Assembly (NCBI GenBank): GCA_937920335.1
Contig: CALGUT010000457.1
Location: 1-37,789 of the forward strand
DNA length: 37,789 bases
Direction: 5' to 3'
DNA from: an uncultured Opitutales bacterium
GTDB taxonomy: Bacteria > Verrucomicrobiota > Verrucomicrobiia > Opitutales > UBA2995
Shown here: one piece after another, positions 1 to 3,515 of the stretch
Numbering within the stretch: position 1 is the first letter of the stretch
Layout of the letters: each line of letters starts with the position of its first letter
The notes under the pieces: model-generated
The model's database searches: none
What the model saw: only the letters and a program-made list of their open reading frames with translations
What the model was told of the DNA's origin: nothing
Made by a program: the position numbers and the translations under genes

Positions 1-57
1 TTCAACGTCGGTGAGGGCCGACTTGATCGCGGCAAATACAGTTTCTTTATCGTTCAT
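1..57 (-). CDS. lutC: LutC/YkgG (LUD domain) lactate utilization protein C, 5' end only (runs off window)
   Basis: Manual translation of 57..1 gives MNDKETVFAAIKSALTDVE, resembling LutC N-termini. Position follows lutA-lutB in the same orientation. Only 19 codons are visible. Confidence 0.6.
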   Translation of the reverse strand, partial: MNDKETVFAAIKSALTDVE

Positions 58-88
58 GAGTCCAGGAAAATTGTACAAAAATAGATGA

Positions 89-119
89 TTACCGCTTATA
101 CTCGCTAATGTGAGCTTAT
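89..119 (+). repeat. Left inverted end of GxxExxY cassette (three CGCTTAT-like units)
   Basis: TTACCGCTTATACTCGCTAATGTGAGCTTAT. ACCGCTTATA (91-100) is the exact reverse complement of TATAAGCGGT (768-777). Confidence 0.75.
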
Positions 120-174
120 CATCGAGAAGACGGGATGAATTTTTTTAAGATAAAACGCCGCCATTCCACCAGTG

Positions 175-222
175 TTCCGGTCTGCTGAGCATCCGGTCTT
201 GTCGCCACTTCGTGTCTCGGAA
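175..222. mobile_element. 48-nt palindromic mini-insertion, copy A (in-frame)
   Basis: TTCCG...CGGAA termini. 40/48 identical to 578-625. Removal converts NFGPNVPRHEVATRPDAQQTGTLVEW to NFGPNALVEW. Confidence 0.8.
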
Positions 223-330
223 CATTCGGACCGAAATTGATAAGATAGCCTACTGCCTTCTTTGTTATGTGCATATAGTTCATAATTTGTTGTTCGTGGC
301 TCGAGTCCAAAATTTTAACCGCCTTTAGCG

Positions 331-463
331 GTCCGATATCTCCCCAAGATGAAAAGTGTCGCTACGCTCGATTCGGTCATGTCGTCGGTCCCCTCCTCGG
401 AAAAGTGACAATTGAGAATATAATATCTAAAAACACAATGTTATGATGTCGCTACACTCGGAA
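331..463. mobile_element. 133-135-nt composite insertion with related termini
   Basis: GTCCG (331-335) ... CTCGGAA (457-463) termini. Internal near-duplicate TGTCGCTAC(G/A)CTCG at 357-370 and 447-460. It separates PDLLV from LKAVK and carries an in-frame stop. Confidence 0.7.
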
Positions 464-577
464 CTCTACACACTAACAGGTCAGGTATATATTTCTTTCT
501 CAGGCATTGCCCTTTATAATATACCTCAAGCTCGTTCTTCGAAGAAAATGGTATTCCTCTCAAACCTAACTCAATTG

Positions 578-625
578 TTCCGGCCTGCAATGCACCCGGT
601 CTTGTCGGCACTGCGTTTCTCGGAA
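578..625. mobile_element. 48-nt palindromic mini-insertion, copy B (in-frame)
   Basis: TTCCG...CGGAA termini. Removal converts YQESLVPRNAVPTRPGALQAGTIELG to YQESLAIELG. Confidence 0.8.
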
Positions 626-748
626 CCAAGCTCTCCTGATACAGTTCCTCGCTCAATCCACCTCCAAGCTCTTTGTGTACCTCAAACGCCGCCCCCATCA
701 AGGAATACCCCTCAGATCCAAGAAACTCTTTGTTCTCTAACATGATTT

Positions 749-780
749 TAAGCGTAAGTTCAGCGGCTATAAGCGGTTAA
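749..780 (-). repeat. Right inverted end of GxxExxY cassette, overlapping the lutB stop codon
   Basis: Minus strand reads TTAACCGCTTATAGCCGCTGAACTTACGCTTA, three CGCT units. Its TAA is the lutB stop (777-779). Confidence 0.75.
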
Positions 781-2189
781 ACCTCCGATCGGTCAGCTTT
801 CTTTCTTTGTTTAAGCCATTTGCGGAATTGGCCGCCTTGCCAGGCAGGCAGGGTGCGGTCCTTGAGCCAGGTTTGCATGGAGGGAACGGGAACCATCGAC
901 TTGGGAAATACATTCATGAGGTGTCCGCCTTTGAGTGCCAAACTCCACGCAGTGGGACTACTCGCCATGGTGGACCAGGCGCCCATGGGTGGGGCGGAGA
1001 TCTTGGACATGGGTGCATTCGCTTCTTTCCCACGGTAGCGCAGTTTAAGTAACAGGTCTGGAATCGGGATATTGACAGGGCAGACTTCGTTGCAAGCACC
1101 ACATAAACTGGAAGCTTTGGGTAAGTCAGCCAACTCTGGGAATCCTTCTTTGCCCACAAGATTGGGAGCCAAAACCGCACCGATCGGCCCCGGATAGGTA
1201 TGACGGTAGGCATGCCCGGAAGCTTGGCGAAAGACGGGGCACACATTCAAACAGGCTCCGCATCGAATACAGTGCAGTGCTTCCCGGCAATCGGATGCCA
1301 GGGTTTCCGTGCGGCCATTATCCACGAATACCACGTGCATCTGCTCAGGGCCTTCCGGCTGATTTTCCGAACGAGGACCGCTCATAAACTCGGTATACAC
1401 CGACCAATGTTGAGCCGTTGATGAGCGGGCCAGCAGATTCAAGTAAAGTGTCAGATCCTCATCGGTCGGGATGATCTTCTCAATTCCCACCACGGCGATG
1501 TAGACTTTGGCGCCAGCCAAACCAAAACGACAATTCCCTTCGTTGGTGACCACGACTACGCGTCCTGATTCGGCCGAAACAAAATTTCCCCCGGACATGG
1601 TGCCGGTGGATGAGAGGTATTTTTCGCGAAGAAATTTCCGGGCCTGCCGTGTTAAGGTTTGTGGATCTTCGGTATACTCCCCTAGCCCATGCTGTTTAAA
1701 GGTCTCGGCGACCTGTCGCTTGTTTTTGTGAATGATGGGTGTCACAATATGACTGGGGTGATCGTTATCGAGCTGCACGACAAACTCCCCGAGGTCACTC
1801 TCCCACACTTCGATATCATTCTCCTCCATGAGCCCGCGCATATCAAGCTCTTCCGTGACCATGCTCTTGGATTTACAAAAACGGGTAACCCCATTCTTTT
1901 TATAAATATCCACGATCTGGGTACGGGCTGACTCCACCGTACTGGCGAAGTGCACCTGCACCCCATTGGATTCCATTTTCGTAACCGTCTGCTCCAAATA
2001 CTCATCAAGATGACTGATGGTATGGCGCTTAAGCTCCCCGGCCCACTCGCGCAGCTTATTCGCCTCCGGGAAATCCCCAAACAATACGTTCTTCCGGCCT
2101 TCGATACGACCCTTGGTCGCTTTATGAATAGCCGCGTTAACTTCAGGATTCAGTTCCTTGGCAAATTGATCTATAGGTTGAAGAGGCAT
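777..2189 (-). CDS. lutB: LutB/LldF iron-sulfur L-lactate utilization protein
   Basis: 470 aa. KSKSMVTEE, ESDLGEF..QL...PSHIVTP, CIRCGACLNVCP and SLCGACNEVCPVNI ferredoxin-type motifs. Confidence 0.93.
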   Translation of the reverse strand: MPLQPIDQFAKELNPEVNAAIHKATKGRIEGRKNVLFGDFPEANKLREWAGELKRHTISHLDEYLEQTVTKMESNGVQVHFASTVESARTQIVDIYKKNGVTRFCKSKSMVTEELDMRGLMEENDIEVWESDLGEFVVQLDNDHPSHIVTPIIHKNKRQVAETFKQHGLGEYTEDPQTLTRQARKFLREKYLSSTGTMSGGNFVSAESGRVVVVTNEGNCRFGLAGAKVYIAVVGIEKIIPTDEDLTLYLNLLARSSTAQHWSVYTEFMSGPRSENQPEGPEQMHVVFVDNGRTETLASDCREALHCIRCGACLNVCPVFRQASGHAYRHTYPGPIGAVLAPNLVGKEGFPELADLPKASSLCGACNEVCPVNIPIPDLLLKLRYRGKEANAPMSKISAPPMGAWSTMASSPTAWSLALKGGHLMNVFPKSMVPVPSMQTWLKDRTLPAWQGGQFRKWLKQRKKADRSEV

Positions 2190-2194
2190 TTTTT

Positions 2195-2693
2195 TTAGAA
2201 GTGAGAAGCGAGGAGATAGTAGTTAGAAACCATAAGTGAAAAGGCACTGATCACAAGTGGTTAGTGATGAAGGATAGGGTTATCGCGCAAAGACGCAGAG
2301 GCGCAACGGAGGGAGAAAAGGTTAAGAGGTAGGGCAATTGCGTCCCCACAATGCCGGTTGGAGCCAGAAAGAATTTCAATCTTGTTCGTGATCATGGTCG
2401 TAATCGTTGTCGATGGTAGGCGTAAGTAGATAAAATTACTTAAAGTATGGGTTATCGCGCAAAGACGCAGAGGCGCAAAGGTTAATCAGTAGGGCGAAAA
2501 ATGACTTAGGATCGGTTGGCTTAACCACGAAGGACACGGAGAAACACGAAGCTTTAGATTAATGGGTAGGGCAATTGCGTCCCCGCAATGCCGGGTTATA
2601 GTGCGGCTCCGCCGCGGTTAAAATCGTTATCCTGATCATGGTCGTAATCGTAATCGATAGTAAACATTTCGGTGGTGAATGGTAAACAAGAAG
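2195..2693 (+). repeat. Mosaic intergenic array of several short repeat families
   Basis: A (30 nt, identical) 2277-2306 and 2449-2478. B (30 nt, 1 mismatch) 2328-2357 and 2565-2594. C (19-nt identical core) 2389-2407 and 2633-2651. Single periodic units at 2195-2229, 2521-2551 and 2673-2693. Hairpins at 2245-2266 and 2603-2615. Confidence 0.9.
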
Positions 2694-2732
2694 GCGTTAA
2701 TAACTAAATAGATGGGATCAATAAGCTACTCA

Positions 2733-3515
2733 CTACTGGCTACTCGATTCTGACTTCTGATCGGGTTCTCCGATCAATGCATCTCTCAGAACCTGAGCAA
2801 TGTGCGTAACCGGATAAGGCAGTCCCTCTTTTTCGGCGAGTCCCTTTTGGTGCATGAGACAACTCATGTCTGCCGATACAATAAGGTCTGGTTTATTGGC
2901 GGTGAGGTTGCCGATCTTAAGGTCGCCCATCGTCTTGGAAATATGCGGAAAGGTCACCGAGAAGGTTCCTCCAAAGCCGCAACACTGTTCAGGCTCGGAT
3001 ACCGCAATCAGTTCAACACCTGCGATCGATGACAGAAGCTGTTCCATCGCCGCTCCCGTTTGGGTGCCACGCGTATGACAGGAATGGTGCACAGCGATTT
3101 TGGCATCGAGCCGTCCCGGCCACGTTGCGATCCCCAAGCCATTTACGAGAAAATCAACCAGTTCCCAGGTCCGGTCGCCCAGCGCTTTTATCTCACCCAA
3201 ATCTGACTCTTTCTCAAACTCGAGAGGCGCTCCATGAAACATCATAGCCGCACAAGAACCGGACGGGACGATGACCGGTTTCTCACCGGCAAACACCGAC
3301 ACGGTATGCCGAACGACTTTCCGCGAGGCAATCCAGTCGCCACCGTTAAAAGCCGGTTGACCACAGCAGGTTTGGCCCTCCGGAAATTCAATGTCGCAGC
3401 CGACGTGGTCAAGTACTTCAACGGTCGCTTGAGCCACATCGGCGTAAAAGGCATCACACAAACAGGTGGCCATTAACTGGACCGACTTAGAAGAGGTTCG
3501 AGATTCGGATATCAT
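2733..3515 (-). CDS. lutA: LutA/YkgE (Fe-S)-binding lactate utilization protein
   Basis: Two CCG domains (QTCCGQPAFNGG, EQCCGFGGTFSV) plus SGSC and HHSCH. ATG at 3515 preferred over TTG at 3521. Confidence 0.92.
   Translation of the reverse strand: MISESRTSSKSVQLMATCLCDAFYADVAQATVEVLDHVGCDIEFPEGQTCCGQPAFNGGDWIASRKVVRHTVSVFAGEKPVIVPSGSCAAMMFHGAPLEFEKESDLGEIKALGDRTWELVDFLVNGLGIATWPGRLDAKIAVHHSCHTRGTQTGAAMEQLLSSIAGVELIAVSEPEQCCGFGGTFSVTFPHISKTMGDLKIGNLTANKPDLIVSADMSCLMHQKGLAEKEGLPYPVTHIAQVLRDALIGEPDQKSESSSQ

What the first reader, a model, noticed from the sequence alone, without database searches (positions are those of the whole stretch)
175..625. Two 48-nt in-frame palindromic mini-elements inserted independently into one small gene
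Seen: 175-222 and 578-625 have the same length and orientation, are 40/48 identical and end in TTCCG/CGGAA inverted repeats. Each sits between a G and a C with no target duplication. They add related peptides (VPRNAVPTRPGALQAGT, VPRHEVATRPDAQQTGT). Precise removal restores family-like sequence (YQESLAIELG; NFGPNALVEW). Established analogy: Rickettsia palindromic elements insert in-frame in genes but are longer. Inference: an undescribed tiny non-autonomous element that preferentially hits this nuclease gene, possibly silencing the cassette or acting as a removable (DNA-excised or RNA-spliced) intervening sequence.
Basis: partly seen in the sequence, partly recalled or inferred. Interest (0 to 1): 0.9.

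Follow-up and report, generated by a model that had tools for sequence, protein, structure and literature searches.

The report
Triplet-replacing hairpin mini-elements kill nuclease gene
Four tiny hairpin-forming DNA elements, members of an apparently undescribed family spread through one order of aquatic bacteria, each replaced a glutamate codon in one likely recently transferred nuclease-family gene and broke it; they are likely moved as single-stranded DNA by an enzyme not yet identified, and cutting them out would not restore the gene.

Summary
The two 48-nt copies are real (40/48 identical) and occur in assemblies from three studies. Their boundaries and removability were misread. A congener holds the same GxxExxY gene intact at the same lutB/lutC site, about 99% identical. 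Against it the window gene has four inserts (51, 52, 75, 51 nt), each standing where a Glu codon (GAG/GAA) was; two carry stops. Removing 48 nt gives Ala at an invariant Glu, so these are not removable introns. The family is widespread in Opitutales, up to 234 copies per genome. Two internal hairpins covary, the terminal repeat does not, and loops are mostly GNA triloops. Targets are (G/C)A(A/G) triplets: the first base is kept, one or two are lost, nothing is duplicated. Copies pile up in mobile genes, REP-like repeats, tRNA fragments and one another. No Rfam family, paper or partner enzyme was found. Verdict: a new variant of non-autonomous palindromic element, with an unusual junction and an unexplained burst in fresh mobile DNA.

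The parts
119..743 (-). GxxExxY (PD-(D/E)XK superfamily) gene, now a pseudogene with four inserts
   Evidence: PF13366 in pieces; the intact orthologue in G002 (L047) is TIGR04256; 3 differences in 393 nt outside the inserts, plus TCG/CTG next to insert D
576..626 (-).
   Evidence: (X4 joint 575-626 with other letters between)
413..464 (-). Insert B, 52 nt standing for GAA (E78): family left hairpin plus AT-rich tail; in-frame stop and frameshift
   Evidence: covered by X1 and X9 contigs
329..403 (-). Insert C, 75 nt standing for GAG (E82 of the invariant ELK motif): type Ib element with a nested hairpin; in-frame stop; first base T and last base G
173..223 (-).
   Evidence: X4 joint 170-223 with other letters between
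36..800 (.). Tract of 98-100% identity with G002 that holds the gene and short stretches of both flanking genes; likely a recent lateral transfer
   Evidence: cassette 97.8-100% against lutB 82.3%; G007 has lutB next to its downstream gene with no cassette
777..2189 (-). lutB-type lactate utilisation gene, upstream neighbour
   Evidence: Pfam LUD_dom, Fer4, LutB_C
1..57 (-). start of the downstream gene (lutC by gene order; inferred, not scanned)

Best explanation
The two repeats are two of four independent insertions of a family of 26-85-nt non-coding hairpin elements that stand in place of a (G/C)A(A/G) triplet, and they are likely moved as single-stranded DNA by an unlinked nicking and strand-transfer enzyme. 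Shown: each copy starts T(T/A)CCGAG-hairpin-GACA and ends in CA; type I adds a second hairpin; the target's first base is kept; the element's core sits between that base and one purine, so a 51-nt unit replaces 3 nt (net +48, frame kept); nothing is duplicated; orientation is fixed relative to the triplet; and the inserts arrived after the gene split from a 99%-identical intact copy. Inferred: the working molecule is the top strand folded as DNA; the cut falls at G^A or C^A in the target; the enzyme is supplied in trans, with a HUH/Y1-type (RAYT-like) protein the best single guess (about one in three); and mobile DNA is hit in bursts, probably while single-stranded during transfer, with selection removing most hits elsewhere. 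The effect here is permanent loss of the gene.
For: Empty alleles: G002 gene, four sites GAG/GAA/GAG/GAA and run X4. A systematic search found empty look-alikes for 9 of 187 elements, all nine with exactly 3 nt between the flanks, mostly GAA or GAG. A 96%-identical phage has GAG, the G002 IS66 has GAG and antisense CAG, and G007 has 10 empty REP copies with CAA. First base G in 168 and C in 12 of 184 type I copies; ends ACCA 89, AACA 72, ATCA 13. Structure: 97.7% of cells paired, 7 of 10 pairs with double changes, 0 of 500 shuffles as high, slid controls 17-35%. GNA triloops in 91 and 65 of 178 hairpins against GNRA tetraloops in 5 and 0; GNA triloops as a DNA-type loop is established knowledge, recalled. 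No coding capacity and no recurring neighbour gene in 150+131 (Pfam), 138 (NCBIfam) and 67 (Pfam) flanking frames. Lengths are multiples of 3 in 110 of 184, and the element sits in open ORFs (PolX-PHP L141; phage ORF). TnpA-REP enzymes cut ssDNA at C|T and C|A, and at GA/GT with an altered guide (PMC8266576, passages). Left-hairpin count tracks Y1 count over 41 genomes, rho 0.59.
Against: No enzyme identified. A single HUH strand transfer should lose no target base (established chemistry), yet one or two are lost. Element-bearing G075, G102, G165 and G324 have no PF01797 match. The Y1 correlation falls to 0.30 after allowing for genome size, and kin are not independent. No lagging-strand bias in complete G001 (15 of 33 on the leading strand). 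The single copies fold no better than shuffles (z -1.0 and -0.8). No donor within 7-8 mismatches of A or D exists in G000 (88% complete), and type I copies at unrelated sites were never identical in five genomes. Junction exceptions: insert C starts with T; TCG/CTG beside D; L083's neighbouring repeat has GGA; a related 77-nt type inserts without loss. No excised or circular form was seen, but only contigs were available.
Confidence: 0.58

Rival explanations
1. Nick-primed copying: a nick at G^A or C^A primes a polymerase or reverse transcriptase on an element template, and the new strand displaces a 1-2-nt flap that is trimmed. This would explain the lost bases, the mixed last base and the tandem duplications that begin at the element.
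For: Loss of 1-2 target bases, and a last base that is sometimes the target's (phage, insert C) and sometimes A (insert A, L380, IS66). rfbA 3' ends and tRNA 3' fragments are duplicated starting at the element. New inserts have no close donor.
Against: GNA triloops and G-T pairs point to the top strand as DNA rather than an RNA template. RT genes near elements are victims, interrupted at the FFD motif, not partners. No RNA data.
Confidence: 0.15
2. Host defence by insertion: a chromosomal system stamps these elements into newly arrived mobile genes to inactivate them.
For: Four inserts in a cassette with about 1% divergence; four in one IS66 and two in one IS481-like gene of the same genome, about 10 of roughly 35 copies in three genes. 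The chance of such a cluster stays below 0.004 even if only 2% of the genome can accept inserts. Hits fall in catalytic motifs (ELK, YSPELN, DET, GIDVH, FFD; motif roles recalled).
Against: Most copies sit in non-coding repeats, tRNA fragments and each other. In-frame, stop-free lengths and tolerated inserts in PolX and a phage ORF suit a benign parasite. Purifying selection alone enriches dispensable DNA. 76 of 80 metagenomic homologues of this gene have no large insert, and the other four share one insert of another type.
Confidence: 0.13
3. The GxxExxY nuclease itself makes the cuts and so is hit in cis.
For: PD-(D/E)XK family, mobile cassette; four hits in its gene; weak count correlation, rho 0.37 over 38 genomes.
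Against: The family is in 149 of 301 Opitutales genomes, including many without elements. IS66 is hit as densely. After the first stop-carrying insert this copy could not act.
Confidence: 0.05
4. A removable intervening sequence, excised from DNA or spliced from RNA, that switches the gene on.
For: A and D keep the frame and have no stop; no RNA run was available to exclude splicing directly.
Against: The lost target bases are not in the filled allele, so removal gives Ala for invariant Glu40. B and C carry stops and would also need removal. No 48-nt skip joint in eight runs' contigs (contigs drop rare variants). No Rfam match.
Confidence: 0.03
5. A classical MITE moved by a DDE transposase through its terminal inverted repeats.
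For: GTTCCG/CGGAAC ends in many type I copies and a CA-3' end.
Against: No covariation in the terminal pairs, and one pair broken in 11 of 30. Types II and VI share the left end but have no inverted right end. Target bases are lost, not duplicated.
Confidence: 0.04

Closest known systems
Rickettsia palindromic elements (RPE)
   Same: Short palindromic non-coding elements that can insert in frame in ORFs (PMC10969869 and PMC3733652, passages); here too in PolX and a phage ORF.
   Different: RPEs are about 150 bp and sit in working metabolic genes. These are 26-85 nt, replace a defined triplet, and mostly sit in mobile or non-coding DNA; two of the four inserts here carry stops.
REP/REPIN elements with RAYT (TnpA-REP)
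   Same: Small ssDNA-type hairpins, lineage-restricted, copy number from a few to hundreds, enzyme in trans; TnpA-REP cuts dinucleotides C|T and C|A (PMC8266576, passages); intragenic REPs are reported in Opitutus terrae (PMC3733652, passages).
   Different: No GTAG or CGTC tag, not an inverted doublet, no linked RAYT. These elements insert into REP-like repeats rather than being them, and they lose target bases.
Non-autonomous IS200/IS605 derivatives (peel-and-paste)
   Same: Subterminal hairpins, strand-specific structure, no terminal repeat, no duplication, fixed orientation to a short target.
   Different: The target is a triplet of which 1-2 bases are lost, rather than a tetranucleotide left intact (recalled); no lagging-strand bias was found; no cognate TnpA was found.
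Classical TIR MITEs (Correia, RUP, ERIC type)
   Same: Non-coding, dispersed, nested, some in frame.
   Different: No conserved TIR and no target duplication.

Membership tests
Rickettsia palindromic elements | in-frame insertion into ORFs that stay open | tested here: inconclusive
   Met for L141 PolX and the phage ORF and for A and D; not for B and C, which carry stops.
Rickettsia palindromic elements | length about 150 bp | tested here: not met
   Type I is 42-77 nt with modes at 45 and 51; RPE length from PMC10969869 passage.
Rickettsia palindromic elements | sequence similarity to an RPE family | not tested
   No RPE library was on hand; the pattern is essentially confined to Opitutales.
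TIR MITE | conserved terminal inverted repeats | tested here: not met
   No covariation; one terminal pair broken in 11 of 30 and another in 3 of 30; absent from types II and VI.
TIR MITE | target site duplication | tested here: not met
   All empty sites show a triplet replaced and none duplicated.
GTAG/CGTC REP and REPIN | GTAG or CGTC tag at the foot of the hairpin, or inverted doublet | tested here: not met
   Invariant columns are TTCCGA, GACA, GACCG, CGGA, CA.
GTAG/CGTC REP and REPIN | cognate RAYT flanked by the repeats | tested here: inconclusive
   Y1 genes lie beside a few copies (L010, L598), but there the element sits inside the Y1's own repeat; four element-bearing genomes have no Y1 match.
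IS200/IS605 non-autonomous element | subterminal hairpins on one strand, no TIR, no duplication | tested here: met
IS200/IS605 non-autonomous element | insertion 3' of a fixed tetra- or pentanucleotide with no loss of target | tested here: not met
   No fixed upstream motif; 1-2 target bases lost.
IS200/IS605 non-autonomous element | lagging-strand orientation bias | tested here: inconclusive
   15 of 33 on the leading strand in G001 (type II/VI 5 of 16, type I 10 of 17); many copies are passengers of other elements.
IS200/IS605 non-autonomous element | cleavage by a cognate Y1 transposase | not testable with these tools
   Needs biochemistry.
Intron or excisable intervening element | precise removal restores the gene | tested here: not met
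   Gives Ala for invariant Glu40; two more inserts carry stops.
Intron or excisable intervening element | spliced RNA junctions | not testable with these tools
   No RNA holder listed.
Rfam families, incl. Acido-Lenti-1 (RF01687) | match to the covariance model | tested here: not met
   0 matches in window 100-800 at E up to 10; in 20 loci only tRNAs and one Acido-Lenti-1 hit, on a neighbouring repeat; 0 RF01687 matches in G000.

The most novel reading that the evidence does not exclude
An unrecognised class of mobile DNA: folded single-stranded mini-elements installed by an unknown enzyme that swaps out part of a (G/C)A(A/G) triplet instead of duplicating it, and that fires in bursts on freshly arrived mobile genes, so that it works as an insertion-based defence against selfish nucleases, transposases and reverse transcriptases.
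Probability: 0.17. Interest if true: 0.9.

Novelty: new variant of a known kind. Interest (0 to 1): 0.66.

Why it matters
How very short palindromic repeats such as RPEs and REPs get into new sites is a long-open question, mostly because empty and filled alleles are rarely found together. This family supplies many such pairs, a precise target rule, a junction (loss of target bases, frame kept) that fits no standard transposase chemistry, and a complete genome with over 200 copies in which the enzyme can be sought. It also shows one way mobile genes die quickly: four hits within about 1% divergence. If the enzyme is new, a system that writes about 50 nt at a three-base motif without duplication would be of mechanistic and possibly practical interest.

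Tried and rejected
Acido-Lenti-1: a hit in L160 looked like a family assignment but lies on the neighbouring repeat. Codon-level (Glu-specific) targeting: all four window sites are in-frame Glu (chance about 0.02), but IS110 hits are out of frame, and RT, IS66 and IS481-like hits are antisense, so the target is DNA. Terminal inverted repeat as the working structure: rejected. Partner by neighbourhood: four family scans of flanking frames gave no recurring gene. Partner by distribution: GIY-YIG does not discriminate (39 of 41, includes UvrC), GxxExxY is too widespread, and Y1 is confounded with genome size. A longer, gene-bearing version was looked for only by eye among left-end matches of five genomes and G000; none was seen. 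Replichore bias: an apparent block pattern in G001 did not match the skew-defined replichores. Intermediate alleles with one to three inserts: none among 80 metagenomic relatives, all 70% identical or less. No RNA holder listed, which is no evidence on expression. No precise-skip joint in eight runs, but contigs cannot show rare variants. A pattern for types II/VI across the phylum gave mostly unstructured matches outside Opitutales. No PDB sequence relative of the intact protein. Single-copy folding energies are not better than shuffles. Rows dropped by eye as chance matches before counting: L067, L084, L090, L096, L104, L110, L113, L131, L149, L150, L180, L185, L202 (L451 too). One search timed out and was rerun. 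Literature: nine searches found no description of this family. Subscription papers and supplements were not seen; the supplementary list of intragenic Opitutus REPs in PMC3733652 could bear on novelty.

Full report
Observation. The two stretches are as described: 48 nt, 40/48 identical, same orientation, between G and C, in frame in a GxxExxY gene on the minus strand. Contigs identical to the filled allele come from studies P1, P4 and P5, so it is not an assembly artefact; P1 may be the source.

The empty allele changes the reading. G002 carries the same gene intact between lutB and its downstream gene. Outside the inserts it differs at 3 of 393 nt, plus one two-base change next to insert D, while lutB is only 82.3% identical. 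G007 has no cassette there, and G004 has a more distant copy broken by another insert. The cassette therefore likely moved between species recently (inference). Against G002 the window gene has four inserts: 576-626 (51 nt for GAG, E40), 413-464 (52 nt for GAA, E78), 329-403 (75 nt for GAG, E82) and 173-223 (51 nt for GAA, E118). Run X4 shows the same replaced joints. B and C carry stops. E40 and E82 are invariant in 17 of 17 homologues.

The family. An HMM finds at least 12 more copies in G000, and a looser scan gives about 35 members by eye (106 raw matches against 54 in each control). The type I pattern is in 5 of 6 congeners and 0 of 34 other relatives, and in 20 of 401 genomes of the class, 17 of them among the 22 of family f28, with a control of 0. 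Related types share the left end T(T/A)CCGAG-hairpin-GACA and end in CA. The shared left end occurs 234 times in G007, 52 in G010 and G035, and 18 in G000, with controls of 0-4; G007 has 102 type II and 122 type VI matches with controls of 0. Outside Opitutales the matches looked unstructured. Of three viral matches, two near-identical phage contigs carry a true copy. Rfam has no match.

Anatomy. In 30 aligned 51-mers the two-hairpin model has 97.7% of cells paired and 7 of 10 pairs with double changes, above all 500 shuffles and all slid controls. The terminal-repeat model has no covariation and one pair broken in 11 of 30. Loops are GNA triloops in 91 and 65 of 178, GNRA tetraloops in 5 and 0, which points to folded single-stranded DNA (GNA triloop stability is recalled knowledge). 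The window's copies alone fold no better than shuffles. Lengths are multiples of three in 110 of 184, although 42 of those 110 hold a frame-0 stop.

Target rule. Empty look-alikes were found for 9 of 187 elements, all with exactly three bases between the flanks. Further pairs come from a phage (GAG), IS66 (GAG; antisense CAG) and G007 repeats (CAA, ten empties). The first base follows the target (G 168, C 12 of 184; nested inserts at CAA start with C). The last base is usually A, but it is the target's G in the phage and in insert C. The simplest description is insertion after the first base of (G/C)A(A/G) with net loss of one base, two if the final A is counted as the element's. Exceptions are listed under evidence against. 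The target is DNA, not a codon: IS110 hits are out of frame and RT, IS66 and IS481-like hits are antisense.

Where they land. tRNA 3' fragments at the T loop, REP-like palindromes, short tandem repeats, a duplicated rfbA 3' end, other copies of themselves, and genes for IS66, IS3, IS481-like, IS630 and IS110 transposases and group II RTs (most of these gene names are recalled from motifs, RT from Pfam). Open ORFs that tolerate them are a PolX-PHP gene and a phage ORF. In G000 about 10 of 35 copies sit in three mobile genes; four in 408 nt is unlikely even if 2% of the genome were the only target (0.004 genome-wide). A and D have no donor closer than 8 and 7 mismatches in G000 (8 and 5 anywhere), and type I copies at unrelated sites were never identical in five genomes, whereas many G007 type II/VI left ends are, mostly as passengers of larger repeats.

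Mechanism. Best supported: a non-autonomous element that likely moves as folded ssDNA, with an enzyme in trans. No recurring neighbour was found. Y1 counts correlate with element counts (rho 0.59; 0.30 after genome size), but four element-bearing genomes lack Y1. TnpA-REP cuts C|T and C|A, and GA/GT with a changed guide (PMC8266576, passages), which resembles the G^T, C^A and G^A junctions here, but does not explain the lost base. There is no replichore bias. Nick-primed copying with flap trimming explains the loss better and is the main mechanistic rival. Defence by insertion explains the bursts, but not the frame-friendly lengths.

Comparison and novelty. It works like RPE, REP/REPIN and IS200/IS605-type miniature elements, but fails a defining test of each (membership table). 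Papers seen, all as passages: PMC3733652, PMC8266576, PMC3116915, PMC10969869, 10.1101/2021.01.26.428298 and 10.64898/2026.10.21.760802; other titles only as search listings. Nine searches found no description; subscription papers and supplements were not seen. Earlier scan notes held nothing on this genome or sequence and one loosely related note.

Verdict. Interest 0.66.

Noticed in passing
window 36-800 against G002:C39 (L047): The GxxExxY cassette and short stretches of both flanking genes are 98-100% identical between two species whose lutB is 82% identical; this looks like homing or short-tract recombination by a family with no known function.
   Followed up: partly
window 2200-2760: A cluster of other repeat types between lutB and lutA; G002 has a second intact GxxExxY gene at this place, which G000 lacks while keeping the flanking repeats.
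   Followed up: partly
G000:C645 (L431) and L245/L250/L251/L256: A further 77-95-nt structured type sits inside a Glu codon without base loss, in an IS66 transposase and in a distant GxxExxY homologue.
   Followed up: partly
G007 (L543-L602): Russian-doll nesting three to four levels deep inside REP/MITE-like units beside about 330-aa Y1 genes; this genome has 46 PF01797 matches.
   Followed up: partly
L024, L006, L396: rfbA is followed by an element and then a second copy of its own 3' end starting right after the Glu codon, in three congeners and with different left junctions; tandemly repeated in G002.
   Followed up: partly
L015, L072, L092, L155, L208 and others: In tRNA-fragment copies, the sequence after the element often ends in the complement of that tRNA's own left flank, giving a target-specific closing stem; this suggests fold-back synthesis.
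   Followed up: no
L141:3-1247: An element sits in frame inside the thumb domain of an open PolX-PHP ORF.
   Followed up: no
G022: A 1.3-Mb genome of the same order has at least 113 Acido-Lenti-1 matches above the cut-off, many in inverted pairs about 145 nt apart, which suggests that this Rfam motif is a REP-like DNA repeat.
   Followed up: no
G004:C173 (L056): The orthologous GxxExxY gene is broken by a different insert of about 190 nt bounded by a 9-nt direct repeat.
   Followed up: no
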